From contig CM000151.3 in the NCBI GenBank assembly GCA_000004695.1, positions 7,808,001-7,872,000 of the forward strand: a stretch of 64,000 bases of DNA, given 5' to 3'. Positions 9,927-64,000 of this stretch are shown here, piece by piece. The DNA is from Dictyostelium discoideum (lineage: Eukaryota). The notes under the pieces were generated by a model. That model had not been told where the DNA came from. It ran no database searches and saw nothing but the letters and a program-made list of their open reading frames with translations. The stretch's first letter is position 1. Each line of letters begins with the position of its first letter. The translations under genes were made by a program, and so were the position numbers.

Positions 9927-10775
9927 CTAAAAATAAGTTGAGACAGCAGTTGATCTTGCTCCATAAGTAAGATCTCTTAAATTACCAAATGGATAGATAT
10001 CACTGCCTTGTTGAGTGTTGATATTTCTGTTGTTGTTTTGAATTGAATTTAATAATAAATCAACGATATTTGAGTGATTATTTGATTTCGCTTCAGCTAA
10101 TGGGCTAACACCACTTTCATCTAAAAGTTGACAGTCAGCGCCATAGGATAAAAGTAATTTTGAGGATTCAAAATCACCAAGACAGGCTGATAAATGTAAG
10201 AGAGATTCACCATCTTCATTGAAAGAGTTGGCATTGGCACCTTTTGACAAGAGGTAACTGAGGATTTGAGGTTGGCATTCACGAATGGCATAATGGGAGG
10301 GTGAGTCACCCTCTTCATCTTGAGAGTTTAAGTTTGCACCATTCTGGACTAAAAGTTGAACCAAATCCATTGAACCAATAGAAACTGCTTTGTGGAGTGG
10401 TGTCGATTCTGTTAAATCGCCTAAATTCAAATTAGCACCTTTGAAAATTAAATATTTAACGTATGGAATGTTTTGTTTTAGGATTGCCAATTGTAATAGT
10501 GTTACACCTTCTTGATTTTGTGTGTTTATGGATATGCCTTGATTCAATATATTATCTATGGATTGATAATCTTGTAAAAGGAAGAATTGAATGATGATAT
10601 CCATAATCTTGAAAGATTCTACTACAAAACTCTTACCACTTCCACTTCCACTAACAACTCCATCCATTGGAGTTGAAAGTGTAGTTCCATTGTGTTGTTG
10701 TTGTTGTTCTGCTACTACTACGCTTGGTGGTTTGTTATTACTTAATGAATTATTATTGTTGGCTGAGGAAAACAT
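9927..10775 (-). CDS. Ankyrin-repeat protein (at least 5 ANK repeats), 282 aa
   Basis: Repeated ANK consensus: TPLHKAVSIGSMDLVQLLVQNGANLNSQDEEGDSPSHYAIRECQPQILSYLLSKGANANSFNEDGESLLHLSACLGDFESSKLLLSYGADCQLLDESGVSPLAEA. ATG is at 10775. A single exon as far as I can see. Confidence 0.7.
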   Translation of the reverse strand: MFSSANNNNSLSNNKPPSVVVAEQQQQHNGTTLSTPMDGVVSGSGSGKSFVVESFKIMDIIIQFFLLQDYQSIDNILNQGISINTQNQEGVTLLQLAILKQNIPYVKYLIFKGANLNLGDLTESTPLHKAVSIGSMDLVQLLVQNGANLNSQDEEGDSPSHYAIRECQPQILSYLLSKGANANSFNEDGESLLHLSACLGDFESSKLLLSYGADCQLLDESGVSPLAEAKSNNHSNIVDLLLNSIQNNNRNINTQQGSDIYPFGNLRDLTYGARSTAVSTYF

Positions 10776-15708: not shown

Positions 15709-17646
15709 TTATCTATTTAAAAATGGTTGTGGTGGTAAAAAATGAGAATGTTCAACAGTTGTATTTGTAGTTGATAAAATTTGAACTTGTTGTTTTGGAG
15801 GAAAAGTTTCTAATTGAATTTCACCTATCCATTCTTTCATTTTGAAAAGGAATTCATTTTTAATGATTCTTATTCTTTTACCATCCTGCCAACTTGCAAT
15901 GATACTACCACCATAACGAACTGTTATATGATTTGTACCAGTGATAGCAGAAAAAGCCAAATAGATATCTGGACGCCATTTATCAGGTTGAGCTTTAACC
16001 CATTTATCCAATTTTGATTCCAAAAAGTATAATTTCTCAACTGGAGTATTAAAATTAACCGTTACATCAACGCCAACACTTGCCTCTTCAGAACGTTGAT
16101 GATTTTCAATTCTCGCCATTACCAATGTCGAATTTGGTAAATAGACAGCTTTACCATCCAAACTCTTGAATGAGGTGAAAACAATGCCAATCCTATCAAC
16201 GAATAAACCTTCCAATTGGTTGATTACCACCTTGTCACCCACTTCGAATGGTCTAACAAAGAATATTAAAATCAATGATTCAAATACGTTTCTCAATGTC
16301 GTACCAAATGCAAATGATAATGCCAATATCGTAGTTGATAGTGGTACGAGGAAAACACTGACCTCCACACCATACAATGTCATAACGAAAAGAAACATTA
16401 GTATCCAAAATATGAAATTCACAATCTCATTAATCACTCTACCAATATCCTCGTGATCCCTAAGACGATACTCCAAGGTTTTTCTTGACCTCACCACCCT
16501 GAGTATCCAATTGGTCAAGTCGTCCTTCTTTATAATATCGCCATGAATGCTGCCAATGGTATTGAACGCTTTGTCCAAATGCTTATCCTTTACATACCCA
16601 CTAAGGTCACTCTTCACCAAATAGCCCTTATGATCCCTATCTGCAAATTTCAACATTTGTTTTGCTATTGTCTTTGCTTGATCTTGAGTGAACTGATCAG
16701 CTTTTGAATTTAGTTTACCACTTAGTTGATTATTTATTTTCAATGATTCAATCCATTGACTAATTCCCATCTTTTTACGTTTCTTTAAACTTGCAGACAC
16801 CGACTGTGACAATGCCGATGGTTTTCTTGTTGACAACTGTTCCAATAGCTCCTCATTTAACAAGGACTGTTTCAAAGAGGTGTAAAATGCTTTTCTATTT
16901 GTTCTAGCGGCTAATATCTTCACCAGTATCACTCTACCACAATAGAGCAAACTTACATACATCACTGCACGTAATGCAGTGAAAAACTTACTCATTGAGT
17001 CCTTTGTCCAATCTGGTAATTGCAATACTGGATCTGTTGCAAAATAAACTATAACCGCCCAAATCAAACAACTCAATGGTCGTATGAACCCATTCACATA
17101 GTAGAATACATGTTGTTGTAAATACATTGTACTTGAAAAAATGGAAAAGAATCCACGAACTAACCAATACACTATTAAAAATGACATAACTCCAATATCA
17201 ATAAACAATGCCCATCTAAGTATTTGTGTCTCCAATATCAATATATCTGGCCAAAATATCCTAAATATTACACCCACCGCTCCAACCAACAATAACATAA
17301 ATAAAATTGATATTATAAAATATTTCCTATTTAAAAATCTCTTTTTAAATGATTTTTTCTTCTTTTTTTTCATTTTCTCTTCATCTTCACCTTCATTTTC
17401 AGGATCTGAATCATAATCTCCTTCAAAACTATCCTTATTCATATCATTTAATGTTACAACTTGAAATGGTAATTCTTGTGCTTGTCCTAATGGTGGATGA
17501 CTCTTTTCACTACCAATCACTAAATCATTACTACTATTACTATTATCTGCTCCACCTAATTTATTTAATTCTGTTGGATATGAACTAACTGTATTAAAAT
17601 TATTATTATTATTTGGTGATTTTGAAAATACTGATTCATTAAATTG

Positions 17647-17695
<49 letters not shown>

Positions 17696-18005
17696 GGATT
17701 ATTATTACTACCATTACTATTACTATTATGATGACCACCACCACCACCACCACCACCACTATTATTATTATTTATAATATTTATATTTATTGGTGGGGAA
17801 GATGAAGATGGAGATATTGAATCATGTGGTGATTTTGATATTGATGGTGCAGAACTTGTTAAATTATTATCTCTATTTACAACTTTGGATATTGCTTCTT
17901 TCTCTTCCCTTGGTGATATTAATGTTACACTTTCATTAATTCTAATTCTTGGACTCTTTATTATTCCACTAGATTTTCTTGGTGATTCTTCATTATCTGA
18001 ATTAC

Positions 18006-18102
<97 letters not shown>

Positions 18103-18321
18103 GTTATTACTTAAATTTGTACTATTTCTTTTTTTAATTTGTTTTGACATTCCTGTACTTTCTTTAGTTTTTTTTGTTGAAACTAAATATTCTTTACTAT
18201 CATTTAAATCATAAAAATTATTATTACTATTATTTGTATCACTTTGGATACTATCCGTTGACTTAAAATTATTATTATTATTAATATTATTATTATTGTT
18301 ATTGTTATTGTTGTTGCTCAT
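15709..18321 (-). CDS. MscS-like (MSL/Msy-type) mechanosensitive channel, 870 aa, single exon, with a degenerate EF-hand-like loop and a poly-Asn N-terminus
   Basis: Multi-TM core followed by the MscS beta-domain signature ...LVPLSTTILALSFAFGTTLRNVFESLILIFFVRPFEVGDKVVINQLEGLFVDRIGIVFTSFKSLDGKAVYLPNSTLVMARIENHQRS.... Upstream is DRDHKGYLVKSDLSGYV, EF-hand-like as in fungal and plant MscS-like proteins. Confidence 0.8.
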
Positions 18322-28021: not shown

Positions 28022-28432
28022 TTAATTATTTATTTTTATTGATAATGCAGGTTGATATTTAATATATACATTAAAATCTGTACATCCTTTTGGACAAGAA
28101 GCGAAACATGTATTTATTTTAACATGTTGTCTTTCAATGTGACCATTAGAACAAAGGTAATCATCTGAATTGAAAACTGAAAAATAGAAACTTTCACCAT
28201 TTGCAGTTGTATTTATTATTGTTGGGTAATCATTTATAAATGCACAATAATTATCATCGACTACAGTTTCACCAGTTTTTGAATTACAACCTTTTCCACC
28301 ATATTGTTCAACATAAATGAAATCTAGGATATATTCTGAACTTGAACTTTCTTCTGTTTTTGAAATATTTATAAGAAAAATAATTGATAGTAAAATTATT
28401 GATAATAATTTCTTAAAGATATAAAGTTTCAT
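28022..28432 (-). CDS. Small secreted Cys-rich protein, 136 aa, with a signal peptide and 8 Cys; no recognisable family
   Basis: MKLYIFKKLLSIILLSIIFLINISKTEE is a hydrophobic signal peptide. The mature part reads ...GGKGCNSKTGETVVDDNYCAFINDY...YLCSNGHIERQHVKINTCFASCPKGCTDFNV.... The ATG is at 28432 and it is a single exon. Confidence 0.45.
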   Translation of the reverse strand: MKLYIFKKLLSIILLSIIFLINISKTEESSSSEYILDFIYVEQYGGKGCNSKTGETVVDDNYCAFINDYPTIINTTANGESFYFSVFNSDDYLCSNGHIERQHVKINTCFASCPKGCTDFNVYIKYQPALSIKINN

Positions 28433-29549: not shown

Positions 29550-29623
29550 CGAGACCATCAGGGGTCGAACCTGAGACCTACCGGTTCGTAGCCGGTCGTT
29601 ATATCCAACTAAACTATAGTCCC
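29550..29623 (-). tRNA. tRNA-Arg(ACG): tRNA-Arg (anticodon ACG)
   Basis: Minus strand: GGGACTATAGTTTAGTTGGATATAACGACCGGCTACGAACCGGTAGGTCTCAGGTTCGACCCCTGATGGTCTCG. The acceptor stem is 7 bp with two G-U pairs. The anticodon stem is CCGGC/GCCGG-like (ACCGG/CCGGT) and the loop is CUACGAA with U33-ACG-A37. The T arm is TCAGG-TTCGACC-CCTGA. Discriminator is G. Total 74 nt. Confidence 0.8.
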
Positions 29624-30827: not shown

Positions 30828-31444
30828 TTAAGCAGTTGGTTGGAAAGCAATGGTATCTTCACCATCGATGATGTAACCGAAAGAGAAGGATTGACCTGGT
30901 TGGATGACTGGGTACCATTGGAGTGACCAGAGGTTAGTGGCTTCATTGACTGAGAGACCCCAGATTGAGTTTGGACGATTTGGAGAAGAGGTGAAAGTTG
31001 GGTTGGTAACAGTGACTGAACCAGTGTTGGTAATTGTACCACCGAATTGAGAGACAGTTTTACCGTTTTCAAACCATGAGGAGTAACGAGTTTGATCAAT
31101 CTTTAATGGTGAAGTAGTGTTGGTACAGACACATTGTGGTTTAATGTAATAGATTGAAGTTGGTTTGCTACAGTATGAACCGAACCAGGCGTCAGCTTCA
31201 GTACGTAAGACACCACCGATAACTCTTGGTGGGCTAGCTCTTAAACCATAGTAACGACCAAAGATGTATGAGGAATCCATTGGGATGTTTGACATACAGA
31301 TTTTGCAAAGTAAATCACTGTTGAAGGTACCCCAGACAATGGTTTTGAAGTCAGCCCACAAAAGAGCAGCTGAGCACATGGCGCATGGCTCTATAGGAGT
31401 TTGTTAGTTGTTCAATTGATTGATCACATGATCATTCATTATTA

Positions 31445-31489
<45 letters not shown>

Positions 31490-31940
31490 AGTGTTTGTAG
31501 ATTAAAACATTATTATTACATATTAATTACTTACCACCAGAAGTGTAAAGAGTGTAGTTGGTGAAAGAGGTGATACCGTGTAAAGCAGTACAGTTGTTGA
31601 TGGCAACGATTTCACCGTGTGAAATGATATTTGGTTTACCAGTGTTGACACCAAGACACATTAAAGTACCATTTTGGTGGTAGATTGAAGCAACGAATTT
31701 CTTGTTTTGTTGTTTGGCGATGGCAAGGACGTAAGCCATACGTTCTTCGTGCATACCTAATTTTTGTGGATCGAGATCAGCTGGAGTGAGAACTTGAACG
31801 TTATCAGTTGGTTTCCAACTGGCTTTTTGAGTAGCAGTACATTCACCAATGGTTGAAGTGTTTGGGTTGAATTCATCGCATGCAAATGAAATTGCAAACA
31901 AAGCAAAGAAGATAGTAAATAATAAAGCGATTTTATTCAT
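30828..31940 (-). CDS. Secreted cytosine-deaminase-like (CDA-fold, Fcy1/CodA-type zinc deaminase) protein with a C-terminal Cys-containing beta-sandwich, carbohydrate-binding-module-like domain. Two exons at 31940..31535 and 31390..30828. 322 aa.
   Basis: Exon 1 reads MNKIALLFTIFFALFAISFA|CDEF..., a clear signal peptide. It continues ...GMHEERMAYVLAIAKQQNKKFVASIYHQNGTLMCLGVNTGKPNIISHGEIVAINNCTALHGITSFTNYTLYTSG on a GTAAGT donor. Exon 2, after a ctcctatag acceptor, reads EPCAMCSAALLWADFKTIVWGTFNSDLLCKICMSN.... Together these give the H-x-E ... PCxxC zinc-deaminase signature. The spacing and flanks resemble yeast cytosine deaminase Fcy1 (HGEI...NC...TLYTTLSPCDMCTGAI) as I recall it. The C-terminus reads ...CVCTNTTSPLKIDQTRYSSWFENGKTVSQFGGTITNTGSVTVTNPTF...WGLSVNEATNLWSLQWYPVIQPGQSFSFGYIIDGEDTIAFQPTA*, which looks like a CBM2/CBM49-type cellulose-binding module. 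Codon usage is strongly C-ending (TTC, TAC, AAC, ATC, ACC, GGT), typical of highly expressed Dictyostelium genes. Confidence 0.7.
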
Positions 31941-34619: not shown

Positions 34620-35801
34620 ATGATATATAATAATAATTTAATTTTAATAATTTCCAAAATTTTAATAATTACAAGTTTTTACAAGTTGATATCAGATTCA
34701 ATAAAATGTATATTCAGAGGTATTGGTGAAATTATGTTGGCAAGTAATGGTTATACAGGTTTGTTATTTTTAGTTGGTCTTTACTTTGAAAACCCTATTA
34801 TGGCAACGGTGGCATTATCATGTACAATAATATCAACACTTACAGCGGTAATATTAAAATTTAATAAAGAGAATATAATGGAAGGGTTATATGGATTTAA
34901 TTCATCATTGATTGGATGTGCAATGGTATTTTATTTAGAATTGAATATTTATGTTATCATTGGATTTATAATGGGATCAATTGTATCCACATTGTTGATG
35001 GAATTCTTCCTAAGGAATAATTTACCAGCGTATACATTTCCATTCATTTTCACAACATGGATACTATTATGGATTCTAAGGATACCAGGAATAACCAATG
35101 CAAAGCCGCCAAGTGACATAATCGATTACCAAGTACTAATTGACTATTCAATGCCTGCGCATTCATTTGGCCAAGTTTTATTCTTGGGTGATTGTATTAG
35201 TGGGTTGTTAGTATTGATTGGTGTTTATATATGGTCGCCAATCGCTTCACTCTATGGTATAATCTCCACATTAATCAGTGCTGGTATTTCAAATTATTTC
35301 CTCAATGTATCTGGTTCCGAGGTTTCTATAGAAAGAATTCACGCTGGTCTATATGGATTCAATGCAGTTTTATGTGGAATAGCTCAAAGTGGTAAAAAAC
35401 CAATTGATGGTATTTATGTATTAATATCTTTAATAATATCAACAACATTTTATATAATGTTAGTTCAAAATAATTTTACATCGTTAACTTTTCCTTTTGT
35501 TTTATCAATGTGGTTTTGTTGTATTTTGAAATTTATTATTTCAAATTATGATAATGATAAAATAAATAATATTATTGGAAATAATGGTGGTGGTGGTGGT
35601 GGTGTAAAACAAACAAAAGTGTATAAAAATTTTAAATTTGTTTTGAAAAAAGTTTCAAAATTAAGAAATAGAAGTAAACAAAATGGGAAATTTAAAAATT
35701 CAACAACAATCAACAATAATGATGACGAAAATGAATTTGCTTTAAAAAATATAATAGTACCAACAACAAATAATAATAACATATTGTTAAATATTATTTA
35801 G
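34620..35801 (+). CDS. Urea transporter (UT/SLC14 family) homolog, about 393 aa
   Basis: Two internally repeated halves carry the UT signature: ...GIGEIMLASNGYTGLLFLVGLYFENP...LYGFNSSLIGCAMVF... and ...FGQVLFLGDCISGLLVLIGVYIWSPIASLYG...AGLYGFNAVLCGIAQ.... The C-terminus is Asn/Gly-rich. The start is ambiguous. ATG at 34620 is a continuous ORF. Alternatively ATG(34614)|GTAAAT ... tttttacaag|TTG (34684) gives M+LISDSIKCIF.... Confidence 0.7.
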   Translation: MIYNNNLILIISKILIITSFYKLISDSIKCIFRGIGEIMLASNGYTGLLFLVGLYFENPIMATVALSCTIISTLTAVILKFNKENIMEGLYGFNSSLIGCAMVFYLELNIYVIIGFIMGSIVSTLLMEFFLRNNLPAYTFPFIFTTWILLWILRIPGITNAKPPSDIIDYQVLIDYSMPAHSFGQVLFLGDCISGLLVLIGVYIWSPIASLYGIISTLISAGISNYFLNVSGSEVSIERIHAGLYGFNAVLCGIAQSGKKPIDGIYVLISLIISTTFYIMLVQNNFTSLTFPFVLSMWFCCILKFIISNYDNDKINNIIGNNGGGGGGVKQTKVYKNFKFVLKKVSKLRNRSKQNGKFKNSTTINNNDDENEFALKNIIVPTTNNNNILLNII

Positions 35802-36508: not shown

Positions 36509-37027
36509 TTATTTTAAATTAAAATCCTCAGAATCATCAATAGCAGATGACATTGTTGTAGAGGTATGAAAAGAGTTATTATTATTATTATTATTGTTAT
36601 TATTTTGATTTACTTGTGTTAGTGTTGGTGTAGTTATGTTATTTGGTGTTTGATTTGTTGGTGAAGAAATAGATGGGGTAGTATTTGTTGTCGTTGTTGC
36701 TGTTGTATTTGTGGTAGTAGTAGTGGGATTATTAAATATTAAAGATTGTGTCCCTTTATAAATTTTTAAAAGTGTATCAATTCTTGGTATTAATTCTTCA
36801 AATGCTAAAACCATTTTATTTTTACCTTCAACTATGAATGCCATGTAAAAGATAACATTATGCTTTGTAATACCTTCATTAATTACAATTTGCTCAATCT
36901 TTGATTTCTCTATAAATTCCACAACTGTTGATGGTCTTAAAAAATATTTTCTTTTTAATTGAACTCCTATCTCTCTCATTACAATTAATGATTCTGAATA
37001 AAAAATAAAAAAAATAAAAAAAATTAA

Positions 37028-37633: not shown

Positions 37634-37707
37634 GTTCGGATGGTGTAGTCGGTTATCACGAATCCTTAACACGGATTAGGTCGTGGGTTCGATTCCCGCT
37701 CTGAATA
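37634..37707 (+). tRNA. tRNA-Val(AAC): tRNA-Val (anticodon AAC)
   Basis: GTTCGGATGGTGTAGTCGGTTATCACGAATCCTTAACACGGATTAGGTCGTGGGTTCGATTCCCGCTCTGAATA. The acceptor stem is GTTCGGA/TCTGAAT with 2 G-U pairs. The anticodon stem is AATCC/GGATT and the loop is UUAACAC (U33-AAC-A37). The T arm is GTGGG-TTCGATT-CCCGC. Discriminator is A. 74 nt. It closely parallels metazoan tRNA-Val-AAC. Confidence 0.85.
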
Positions 37708-37739
37708 CTCTCTTTCCCTTTACCACATTATATGTCGTA

Positions 37740-63744: not shown

Positions 63745-63827
63745 GAAAAAGTATTGCAAGAGGCGAGATTCGAACTCGCGAACCGAATGGATGAGATCTT
63801 AAGTCACACGGATTTAACCAGACTTTC
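63745..63827 (-). tRNA. tRNA-Leu(UAA): tRNA-Leu (anticodon UAA), type II with a long variable arm
   Basis: Minus strand: GCAAGGGTAGGAAAGTCTGGTTAAATCCGTGTGACTTAAGATCTCATCCATTCGGTTCGCGAGTTCGAATCTCGCCTCTTGCA. The acceptor stem is GCAAGGG/CTCTTGC with one G-U pair. The D stem is 3 bp, GGA/TCC. The anticodon loop CUUAAGA (U33-UAA-G37) is identical to metazoan tRNA-Leu-UAA, and the stem has one U-U mismatch. The variable region is 12 nt. The T arm is GCGAG-TTCGAAT-CTCGC. Discriminator is A. 83 nt. Confidence 0.75.
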
Positions 63828-64000
63828 CTACCCTTGCTTTGATGTTTTTAGTGTAATAAAGCTTGTTAGCTTTATAAATATATATCGCGTAGCAAAATTT
63901 TCAAAAAAAAAGCAAAAAATAATCAGATCGAAAAAAACAAACAACAACAACAATCTCTTTTTTTGATTATTTCATTTTTCATATAAAAAAGACTTAAAAA

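What the first reader, a model, noticed from the sequence alone, without database searches (positions are those of the whole stretch)
30828..31940. Secreted cytosine-deaminase-fold enzyme fused to a carbohydrate-binding-module-like domain
The gene encodes an unambiguous signal peptide, then a CDA-fold zinc deaminase domain. The zinc site is split across an intron: HGE in exon 1 and PCAMC in exon 2. The flanks (…SHGEIVAINNC…TLYTSGEPCAMCSAAL…) are closest, as far as I can judge without a search, to the yeast Fcy1/CodA cytosine deaminase type rather than to dCMP or tRNA deaminases. A C-terminal ~150-aa Cys-containing beta-rich domain follows, with CBM2/CBM49-like motifs (TNTGSVTVTN, QWYPVIQPGQSFSFGY). 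Cytosine deaminases are normally cytosolic pyrimidine-salvage enzymes and are absent from many eukaryotic lineages. A secreted, polysaccharide-anchored version suggests an extracellular role: pyrimidine or nucleoside scavenging from prey bacteria, detoxification of a cytosine-containing antibiotic such as a blasticidin-S-like compound, or a matrix or cell-wall-tethered enzyme. Codon usage indicates high expression. I would treat it as a candidate new type of extracellular deaminase.
Basis: partly seen in the sequence, partly recalled or inferred. Interest (0 to 1): 0.8.

Follow-up and report, generated by a model that had tools for sequence, protein, structure and literature searches.

The report
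Secreted cellulose-tethered zinc deaminase, Dictyostelium
This Dictyostelium discoideum gene (DDB_G0277355) does encode a secreted zinc deaminase fused to a cellulose-binding module, its reference annotation splices out the zinc site, and it belongs to an unstudied family of extracellular deaminases whose substrate is unknown.

Summary
On the minus strand, exon 1 (31940-31535) and exon 2 (31390-30828), joined across a 144-nt GTAAGT...TATAG intron, give a 322-aa protein. It has a signal peptide, a CDA-fold zinc deaminase (HGE, PCAMC; Pfam PF00383, E=1e-12) and a C-terminal CBM49 (E=3e-20).

The gene is DDB_G0277355 of D. discoideum AX4. The 299-aa reference model uses other splice sites, removes EPCAMC and is annotated only as carbohydrate-binding.

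The deaminase belongs to the TadA / Fcy1 / guanine-deaminase branch. It cannot be assigned to Fcy1, so cytosine is not supported as the substrate.

It is one member of a Dictyostelia-wide family. At least six catalytically intact AX4 genes were found, and other species have forms with hydrophobic, GPI-signal-like C-terminal tails. The nearest outside relatives are signal-bearing bacterial and fungal proteins.

Best reading: a matrix-tethered small-molecule deaminase of late development, substrate unknown. One speculative, testable lead is that the family includes the still-uncloned folate/pterin deaminase.

Novelty: new variant of a known kind. Interest 0.58.

The parts
31535..31940 (-). Exon 1 (aa 1-135 plus the first base of codon 136): signal peptide, N-terminal extension, and the first half of the deaminase domain including HGE
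   Evidence: colinear with intronless orthologues
31881..31940 (-). Predicted signal peptide, aa 1-20 (MNKIALLFTIFFALFAISFA | C)
   Evidence: Hydrophobicity and the -3/-1 rule; A20 and C21 invariant in 18 homologues; not tested with SignalP
31611..31619 (-). HGE motif (H108 zinc ligand, E110 proton shuttle)
   Evidence: Sequence; invariant in the family
31391..31534 (-). Intron: 144 nt, GTAAGT...TATAG, phase 1, 16% GC, long T/A runs
   Evidence: orthologues lack it and read through; the same junction is implied by the P0230 annotation
30828..31390 (-). Exon 2 (aa 136-322 plus stop): PCAMC, C-terminal half of the deaminase, Cys-rich linker, CBM49
31374..31388 (-). PCAMC motif (C138 and C141 zinc ligands)
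   Evidence: Sequence; invariant in correctly modelled homologues
31122..31808 (-). CDA-fold deaminase domain (about aa 45-225, interrupted by the intron). It includes the beta4-beta5 insertion with C164-x-x-C167 and M168/N170/P172/D174, and the C-terminal helix plus the Y208-C209...C222-x-C224 tail
30831..31121 (-). CBM49 cellulose-binding module (aa 226-322; Pfam match aa 232-310). Family-conserved aromatics: W241, F251, F268, W279, W290, W294, F306, Y308, F318
31318..31530 (-). Intron of the AX4 reference model (GTAATT...AACAG, 213 nt). It removes 73 nt of 52%-GC coding sequence, deleting EPCAMCSAALLWADFKTIVWGTFNS, and yields the 299-aa XP_642768.1
   Evidence: Reconstructed exactly from P0003

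Best explanation
DDB_G0277355 encodes a secretory-pathway protein with three parts. A cleaved signal peptide sends it into the ER. A catalytically intact zinc-dependent CDA-fold deaminase domain follows; it has H108, C138 and C141 as zinc ligands and E110 as proton shuttle, and belongs to the TadA / Fcy1 / guanine-deaminase branch. That domain carries family-specific cysteines and five N-glycosylation sequons. A C-terminal CBM49 with a CBM2-like beta-sandwich fold and conserved aromatic residues then anchors the enzyme on crystalline cellulose.

In Dictyostelium, cellulose exists only in the developmental matrix: slime sheath, stalk tube and spore coat. I infer that the tethered enzyme hydrolytically deaminates a small diffusible amino-heterocycle (a base, nucleoside or pterin-like compound) and releases ammonia. 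It would act as a matrix-bound sink or modifier, not as a cytosolic salvage enzyme.

Shown here: the gene structure, the domains, the intact catalytic motifs, their conservation across Dictyostelia, and the fold. Inferred: secretion, cellulose tethering, catalytic activity, and a small-molecule rather than nucleic-acid substrate. Unknown: the identity of the substrate.
For: - Domains and motifs.
- Catalytic residues H108, G109, E110, E136, P137, C138, C141 and N99 are invariant in 14 correctly modelled homologues spanning all four dictyostelid taxon groups.
- The AF2 model shows a confident deaminase core and CBM.
- The family uses three extracellular formats. Paralogues carry signal peptides and either no anchor, a C-terminal hydrophobic GPI-signal-like tail (8 of 18 representatives), or CBM49.
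- An unrelated metagenomic eukaryote-like sequence fuses the same deaminase to a WSC carbohydrate-binding domain (P0059).
- Many of the closest bacterial relatives carry Tat or Sec signals.
- Extra cysteines are invariant only in the eukaryotic secreted forms.
- Two AX4 paralogues (DDB_G0272030, DDB_G0282171) are detected only at culmination and fruiting body, the stages at which the same paper reports most CBM49 matrix proteins (PMC12821622 supplement and section 3.5.2).
- The deaminase domain is near neutral (pI 7.6, 16 K+R against 15 D+E), not basic as expected for an RNA binder.
Against: - No transcript, protein, localisation or activity data exist for this gene. It was not found in the held text of the 2026 developmental proteome or in any searchable paper.
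- The signal peptide was judged by heuristics only.
- Segments 164-170 and 209-224, which could form an active-site lid, are modelled at pLDDT below 50.
- Bacterial gene neighbourhoods gave no clue to the substrate.
- The in-frame AX4 splice variant lacking the zinc site could exist as a minor isoform.
Confidence: 0.6

Rival explanations
1. One reading: an extracellular Fcy1-type cytosine deaminase that salvages pyrimidines from prey or detoxifies cytosine-containing antibiotics such as blasticidin S.
For: - The zinc-binding core is most Fcy1-like per residue. HGE (not HAE) is followed by NC, and the TLYT..PC.MC motif is shared; identity is 35% over 63 aa against a yCD sequence recalled from memory. 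Single-sequence phmmer gives 29 bits over 68 aa to cytosine deaminase 8vll.
- The position aligned with NE0047's second catalytic Glu is not acidic (N170 or I171). This fits a one-carboxylate, yCD-like mechanism (PMC9081823).
Against: - The domain has an N-terminal extension and a beta4-beta5 insertion of about 30 aa, shared with NE0047 and the bacterial relatives but absent from the 158-aa Fcy1.
- No counterpart of Fcy1's lid residue D155 was identified; no residue-level alignment of the C-terminal helix to Fcy1 was obtained.
- From general knowledge, D. discoideum is routinely killed by blasticidin S unless it carries bsr.
- Paralogues are late-developmental proteins, not feeding-stage ones.
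Confidence: 0.12
2. A deaminase of 2-amino-4-oxo heterocycles: the classical Dictyostelium folate/pterin deaminase, or an extracellular guanine deaminase. The family would supply the secreted and cell-surface activities that destroy folate or pterin chemoattractants.
For: - Folate deaminase is secreted and cell-surface, has a molecular weight of about 40,000, and was 'yet to be cloned' in 2021 (PMC4794234, PMC8616412). No later cloning was found.
- The family offers secreted and GPI-signal-like forms across all dictyostelid groups.
- The mature protein is 33.2 kDa with 5 sequons.
- The only full-length solved relative is the CDA-fold guanine deaminase NE0047.
Against: - NE0047's second proton-shuttle residue E143, described as a hallmark of guanine deaminases (PMC9081823), is not conserved. 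It aligns with N170 or I171, and the family has Q, N or E there.
- Folate deaminase is abundant in growth-phase cells (PMC5476428). The two paralogues seen by proteomics appear only at culmination and fruiting body.
- A cellulose anchor makes no sense for vegetative cells.
- The molecular-weight match is weak evidence.
Confidence: 0.12
3. A secreted nucleic-acid deaminase acting on tRNA, RNA or DNA. It would be a defensive toxin displayed on the matrix against bacteria, fungi or nematodes, analogous to bacterial toxin deaminases or vertebrate SNADs.
For: - Pfam MafB19-deam scores 35.4 bits, above its cut-off of 27.
- Bacterial toxin deaminases can use Sec export (PMC3239186).
Against: - MafB19-deam also hits ordinary TadA-like proteins in this set.
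- The NCBIfam TadA equivalog scores 28 bits against a cut-off of 150.
- The domain is near neutral.
- There is no translocation or delivery domain, and the enzyme is immobilised on cellulose or, in paralogues with GPI-signal-like tails, probably on the producer's own surface.
- The bacterial relatives are small stand-alone proteins without conserved immunity-like neighbours.
Confidence: 0.08
4. A non-catalytic matrix protein. Either the deaminase fold serves only as a binding or structural module, or the AX4 299-aa isoform lacking PCxxC is the real product.
For: - The family does contain degenerate members, with HSE...PDSLSS in P0022, P0024 and P0026.
- The AX4 reference model is in frame.
Against: - All zinc and catalytic residues are invariant in the CBM49 clade across Dictyostelia.
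- The reference intron would contain 73 nt of 52%-GC, codon-biased sequence, against 16% GC in the true intron.
- Intronless orthologues encode the segment.
Confidence: 0.05

Closest known systems
NE0047, CDA-fold guanine deaminase of Nitrosomonas europaea (PDB 2g84, 4hrq)
   Same: It is the only solved protein matching the whole domain by sequence (aa 51-216, E 2e-8 to 4e-9) and the top Foldseek hit. It shares the pre-helix N-terminal segment, N66 (aligned with N99), the beta4-beta5 insertion with a conserved Pro, and the C-terminal helix.
   Different: Identity is about 23%. NE0047 is cytosolic and has no CBM. It has HAE rather than HGE. Its second catalytic Glu (E143) aligns with N170 or I171. 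It has no extra cysteines.
Yeast cytosine deaminase Fcy1 (PDB 1uaq, 1p6o)
   Different: Fcy1 is a compact 158-aa cytosolic enzyme without the N-terminal extension, the insertion, a signal peptide or a CBM. No counterpart of its lid residue D155 was identified here.
TadA / ADAT2 tRNA adenosine deaminases
   Different: The NCBIfam TadA model scores far below its cut-off (28 against 150). TadA and ADAT2 are cytosolic RNA enzymes. The protein studied here is secreted, glycosylatable, near neutral and tethered to cellulose.
Signal-bearing bacterial and fungal 'nucleoside deaminase' proteins of unknown function (for example P0018, P0038, P0043, P0173, P0205, P0216; relatives in Nocardia, Tsukamurella and Alphaproteobacteria)
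   Same: They are the nearest non-dictyostelid relatives, at 30-42% identity. They share the NP..HGE..AIN.C and TLYTTGEPC.MC motifs and the insertion motif G..QI..(D/S)S. Many carry Tat or Sec signal peptides.
   Different: They have no CBM49 (one, P0059, has WSC) and lack the dictyostelid cysteine set. None is characterised, and they have no conserved gene neighbourhood.
Dictyostelium CBM49 matrix proteins and plant class C GH9 cellulases (SlCel9C1)
   Same: They use a C-terminal CBM49 as a cellulose anchor. Dictyostelium CBM49 proteins accumulate at culmination and fruiting body (PMC12821622).
   Different: Their partner domains are structural repeats, cellulases or expansins. I found no description of a deaminase partner.
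Other secreted deaminases: vertebrate SNADs and ADGF/ADA2
   Same: These are extracellular deaminases with signal peptides. Pfam SNAD4 gives only a weak hit here (E 0.09).
   Different: By general knowledge, SNADs belong to the AID/APOBEC branch and ADGF has an amidohydrolase fold. Neither is polysaccharide-tethered.

Membership tests
CDA (cytidine/deoxycytidylate deaminase-like) zinc deaminase superfamily | H-x-E and P-C-x-x-C zinc and catalytic motifs in one polypeptide | tested here: met
   H108-G-E110 and P137-C-A-M-C141 are present after splicing. They are invariant in homologues and lie in one ORF in intronless orthologues.
CDA (cytidine/deoxycytidylate deaminase-like) zinc deaminase superfamily | Profile score above the curated threshold, and the deaminase fold | tested here: met
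Fcy1-type cytosine deaminase | Core HGE/N51-type active site | tested here: met
   N99, H108, G109 and E110 align with yCD N51, H62, G63 and E64 (yCD sequence recalled from memory).
Fcy1-type cytosine deaminase | Compact architecture (~158 aa) with a C-terminal lid helix carrying W152 and D155 | tested here: not met
   A beta4-beta5 insertion of about 30 aa and an N-terminal extension are present. Fcy1 matches cover only aa 86-156. No counterpart of D155 was identified.
Fcy1-type cytosine deaminase | Cytosine / 5-fluorocytosine deaminase activity | not testable with these tools
   Needs an enzyme assay.
CDA-fold guanine deaminase (NE0047 / GuaD type) | Conserved Asn contacting the exocyclic oxygen (N66 in NE0047) | tested here: met
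   N99 is invariant and aligns with N66.
CDA-fold guanine deaminase (NE0047 / GuaD type) | Second carboxylate proton shuttle (E143 in NE0047) | tested here: not met
   E143 aligns with N170 (HMMER) or I171 (MAFFT). The family has N, Q or E at position 170. D/E174 is conserved 3-4 residues downstream, so a functional substitute is not excluded.
TadA tRNA adenosine deaminase | Equivalog-level profile score | tested here: not met
   NF008113 scores 28 bits against a cut-off of 150.
Blasticidin-S / cytidine deaminase branch | Fold-level closeness | tested here: not met
CBM49 cellulose-binding module | Profile score above threshold, and a CBM2-like beta-sandwich with conserved surface aromatics | tested here: met
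CBM49 cellulose-binding module | Binding to crystalline cellulose | not testable with these tools
   Needs an Avicel or stalk-cellulose pull-down.
Classical secretory protein | Cleavable N-terminal signal peptide | tested here: inconclusive
   The n/h/c regions and the -3/-1 rule fit, and the feature is conserved in all homologues. No SignalP run and no experimental data.
Dictyostelium folate/pterin deaminase (biochemically defined, uncloned) | Secreted and cell-surface forms, ~40 kDa | tested here: inconclusive
   The family has secreted and GPI-signal-like forms. This mature protein is 33.2 kDa with 5 sequons. The target description comes from PMC4794234.
Dictyostelium folate/pterin deaminase (biochemically defined, uncloned) | High expression in growth-phase and early-starvation cells | tested here: not met
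   Paralogues DDB_G0272030 and DDB_G0282171 were detected only at culmination and fruiting body. There are no data for DDB_G0277355 itself.
Dictyostelium folate/pterin deaminase (biochemically defined, uncloned) | Deamination of folate and pterin | not testable with these tools
   Needs an enzyme assay or knock-outs.

The most novel reading that the evidence does not exclude
The secreted CDA-fold family to which this gene belongs has at least six intact genes in AX4 and occurs as free, GPI-signal-tailed and cellulose-tethered formats across Dictyostelia. It may include the long-sought, never-cloned folate/pterin deaminases that shape self-generated chemoattractant gradients. The CBM49-tethered members would then act as matrix-bound sinks for a pterin- or purine-type signal, or as local ammonia sources, in the fruiting body.
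Probability: 0.12. Interest if true: 0.85.

Novelty: new variant of a known kind. Interest (0 to 1): 0.58.

Why it matters
1. The AX4 reference model (XP_642768.1 / Q54ZU8, 299 aa) splices out the zinc-binding motif. The databases therefore describe the protein only as carbohydrate-binding. The corrected 322-aa product reveals an enzyme.

2. A nucleobase-type deaminase fused to a cellulose-binding module does not appear in the searchable literature. Together with its secreted and GPI-signal-tailed paralogues, it points to unrecognised extracellular deamination chemistry in the Dictyostelium developmental matrix. Ammonia, adenosine, cytokinins, pterins and c-di-GMP are all signals in that system.

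3. The family gives a short, testable gene list for the folate/pterin deaminase. That enzyme is central to work on self-generated gradients and was still described as uncloned in 2021.

4. The same clade includes many signal-bearing bacterial and fungal proteins of unknown function, so identifying a substrate here would annotate a wide family.

Tried and rejected
- Literature searches for DDB_G0277355, DDB_G0292080, the short paralogues and their UniProt accessions found nothing.
- The supplements of the 2026 developmental proteome and of the 2022 cell-type marker paper do not contain this gene in the held text. The spreadsheets were cut when stored, so this absence is weak evidence.
- Wurster 1981 (PMC216180), on folate and pterin deaminase kinetics, is not held.
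- Gene neighbourhoods of bacterial relatives gave nothing. Two look-ups and a Pfam enrichment over 146 flanking ORFs from 39 loci showed no conserved partner; the best was 4 of 146 generic two-component proteins.
- tblastn found no paralogue in the window.
- NCBIfam gave only sub-threshold TadA hits.
- The spliced window protein could not be submitted to structure prediction or to the representative search. I used the 94%-identical D. citrinum orthologue P0002 and dictyostelid alignments instead.
- Linkage to the divergent neighbouring urea-transporter gene was considered and rejected as a functional clue. It is absent from the D. purpureum and T. lacteum loci.
- The MafB19-deam Pfam hit was rejected as evidence for a toxin, because it also hits ordinary TadA-like proteins in this set.
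- The NJ tree has no bootstrap support. I use it only for the coarse statement that the dictyostelid sequences cluster together.
Full report
**What is in the sequence.** The window is very AT-rich (21.6% GC) and contains a compact GC-enriched gene on the minus strand.
- Exon 1 is 31940-31535 and exon 2 is 31390-30828.
- They are separated by a 144-nt intron (GTAAGT...TATAG, phase 1, 16% GC against 39-44% in the exons).
- The spliced CDS is 969 nt and gives 322 aa.

Pfam gives CBM49 (aa 232-310, 72.8 bits, E=2.9e-20) and dCMP_cyt_deam_1 (aa 68-156, 47.9 bits, E=1.3e-12). MafB19-deam overlaps at 35.4 bits. CBM_2 is weak (E=0.04).

The N-terminus (MNK-IALLFTIFFALFAISFA|CDEF) has the layout of a cleavable signal peptide, and A20-C21 is invariant in 18 homologues. 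The mature protein is 33.2 kDa, has pI 6.5 and carries five N-x-S/T sequons.

**Identity of the gene and the splice question.** The window is Dictyostelium discoideum AX4, and the gene is DDB_G0277355 (XP_642768.1, UniProt Q54ZU8).

The reference product has only 299 aa. I reproduced it exactly by using a donor 4 nt further on (GTAATT) and an acceptor 73 nt inside exon 2 (AACAG). That model places 73 nt of 52%-GC, codon-biased sequence in the intron. It deletes EPCAMCSAALLWADFKTIVWGTFNS, which includes both cysteine zinc ligands. This is why the databases list only CBM49 for it and call it a 'carbohydrate binding domain-containing protein'.

- Every correctly modelled homologue keeps the segment, with E136, P137, C138 and C141 invariant.
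- The D. purpureum and Tieghemostelium lacteum orthologues are single uninterrupted ORFs (966 and 990 nt) that read ...YTTGEPCAMC... straight through the junction.
- A newer annotation of another D. discoideum strain (KAM9946467.1, P0230) is 322 aa and differs from the window product by one residue, K59E.

No transcript data could be consulted, so the in-frame reference junction could still exist as a minor isoform.

**Which deaminase.**
- Single-sequence search of PDB sequences puts the CDA-fold guanine deaminase NE0047 first (E=2e-8). It is the only full-length match (aa 51-208). Fcy1-type cytosine deaminases, B. subtilis GuaD and TadA/TAD2 follow at about 5e-6 to 2e-5.
- A family profile scores TadA (9e-11), TAD2, Fcy1-type (1e-9) and NE0047 (4e-9, aa 51-216) about equally. 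dCMP deaminases are not listed at E<=0.001; the only dCMP deaminase hit was 2hvv at E=0.19 in the single-sequence search.
- An AF2 model of the 94%-identical D. citrinum orthologue has mean pLDDT 77, above 90 over aa 50-160 and about 88 over the CBM.
- Foldseek on that model puts NE0047 first.

The domain therefore belongs to the TadA / Fcy1 / guanine-deaminase branch but to none of its characterised subfamilies.

The HGE (not HAE) motif followed by NC, and TLYT..PC.MC, give 35% identity over the 63-aa core against a yCD sequence I recalled from memory. But the domain also has an N-terminal extension and a beta4-beta5 insertion of about 30 aa that Fcy1 lacks and NE0047 has.

Against a guanine-deaminase assignment, the second proton-shuttle residue E143, described as a hallmark of guanine deaminases (PMC9081823), aligns with N170 (HMMER) or I171 (MAFFT). 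The family has N, Q or E at position 170 and a conserved D/E at 174. The substrate cannot be read from the sequence.

**Family context.** An exhaustive profile search found 18 representatives below 1e-30. All that could be traced are dictyostelid.

The family has several formats:
- CBM49-fused forms occur in all four taxon groups. AX4 has a second one, DDB_G0292080, whose gene models also disagree around PCxxC among strains.
- Short secreted forms exist. In AX4 these are DDB_G0272442, DDB_G0272030, DDB_G0282171 and Q8T1Z7, all with a signal peptide and intact HGE/PCPMC.
- Forms ending in a hydrophobic, GPI-signal-like tail make up 8 of 18 representatives, all from other species.
- Degenerate members have lost the zinc ligands (P0022, P0024, P0026).

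In a distance tree without bootstrap, all 40 dictyostelid sequences cluster together. Next come signal-bearing eukaryote-like metagenomic sequences, including P0059, which fuses the deaminase to a WSC carbohydrate-binding domain. Then comes a large bacterial set. Many of those bacterial relatives carry Tat or Sec signals. Named ones come from Nocardia, Tsukamurella, Segniliparus, Pseudomonas and many Alphaproteobacteria, at 30-42% identity. Their gene neighbourhoods are not conserved.

**Expression.**
- Codon bias is strong: GC3 is 0.38 against 0.05-0.25 for 19 other window ORFs, with TAC, AAC, ATC, CAC, GGT and CCA preferred. By general knowledge of Dictyostelium codon usage this suggests high expression.
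- I found no direct data for this gene.
- In the 2026 life-cycle proteome (PMC12821622), paralogues DDB_G0272030 and DDB_G0282171 are detected only at culmination and fruiting body. The same paper reports many CBM49 matrix proteins in the clusters it treats under culmination and fruiting-body maturation.
- DDB_G0277355 is not in the held text of that paper's supplements. Those files were truncated when stored.

**Interpretation.** The best-supported reading is a catalytically intact zinc deaminase that is secreted and glycosylated and is anchored through CBM49 to the cellulose of the developmental matrix, where it acts on a small diffusible amino-heterocycle. The extra invariant cysteines suggest disulfide stabilisation, but no pairings were determined.

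Four observations argue for real extracellular catalysis:
- The family uses three extracellular formats (free, GPI-signal-tailed, cellulose-tethered).
- An independent fusion to another carbohydrate-binding domain exists.
- The nearest bacterial relatives are signal-bearing.
- The catalytic residues are invariant.

The near-neutral charge of the domain and the lack of any delivery module argue, weakly, against a nucleic-acid toxin.

**A speculative lead.** Dictyostelium folate deaminase is secreted and cell-surface, about 40 kDa, central to self-generated folate gradients, and 'yet to be cloned' as of 2021 (PMC4794234, PMC8616412). No later cloning was found. CDA-fold enzymes such as GuaD, NE0047 and RibD deaminate the same 2-amino-4-oxo ring. 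Against this lead, the guanine-deaminase second carboxylate is missing, the paralogues seen by proteomics are late-developmental rather than growth-phase, and a cellulose anchor does not suit vegetative cells. I put this at about 0.12 for the family and lower for this gene.

**Verdict.** The gene is annotated but mis-modelled and uncharacterised. Its architecture is a new variant of a known enzyme kind, within an unstudied extracellular deaminase family.

Noticed in passing
window 31318-31534 (minus strand): The AX4 reference gene model (XP_642768.1, 299 aa) uses donor GTAATT at 31530 and acceptor AACAG at 31318. This removes the PCxxC zinc motif and hides the deaminase domain from database annotation. 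The 322-aa model should replace it.
   Followed up: yes
P0233-P0236 (DDB_G0292080 and strain orthologues; not in this window): The second CBM49-fused paralogue has four different gene models among D. discoideum strains, exactly around PCxxC (EPCAMCLIVVWG, EPCSMCLNFKVV, EPCAIALLW, EPCTLCASALLW). This suggests an intron near the same site that is repeatedly mis-called. The AX4 product (320 aa) also looks truncated there.
   Followed up: partly
P0022, P0024, P0026 (D. discoideum and D. purpureum paralogues): These are catalytically degenerate family members. HSE is retained but PCxxC is replaced by PDSLSS. One has a long Ser/Lys/Asp-rich low-complexity tail. They look like pseudo-enzymes within the secreted family.
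   Followed up: no
P0059 (JGI metagenome, 364 aa): This sequence has a signal peptide, the same deaminase clade and a C-terminal WSC carbohydrate-binding domain. It is an independent fusion of this deaminase to a glycan-binding module in an unidentified, eukaryote-like organism.
   Followed up: no
window 34620-35801 (+): A urea-transporter ORF (PF03253, E=1e-54) is transcribed divergently, 2.7 kb from the deaminase start. The nitrogen-waste theme is suggestive, but the adjacency is absent from the D. purpureum and T. lacteum loci.
   Followed up: partly
window 28022-28432 (-): An ORF matches the counting-factor-associated protein family CfaA_B_C (PF11912, E=2e-8). This is another secreted-protein family, about 2.4 kb downstream of the deaminase gene.
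   Followed up: no
window 29550-29623 (-), 37634-37708 (+), 63755-63837 (-): Three tRNA genes: Arg-ACG, Val-AAC and Leu-TAA. The Arg gene lies 1.2 kb from the 3' end of the deaminase gene.
   Followed up: no
L008:1-575 (Cavenderia fasciculata): The C. fasciculata orthologue lies about 2.4 kb from a GGDEF-domain (diguanylate cyclase-like) gene. This may be coincidence, but c-di-GMP is a guanine-containing stalk morphogen.
   Followed up: no
PMC12821622 supplement S1 (DDB_G0292096): [quoted passage not shown] It is also detected only at culmination and fruiting body. I did not check whether it belongs to this family.
   Followed up: no
window 36509-36979 (-), 15709-18321 (-), 9927-10775 (-): Other neighbours: a PIG-H (GPI-GlcNAc transferase) ORF, an MscS-like channel ORF and an ankyrin-repeat ORF. 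These are ordinary genes with no evident link to the finding.
   Followed up: no
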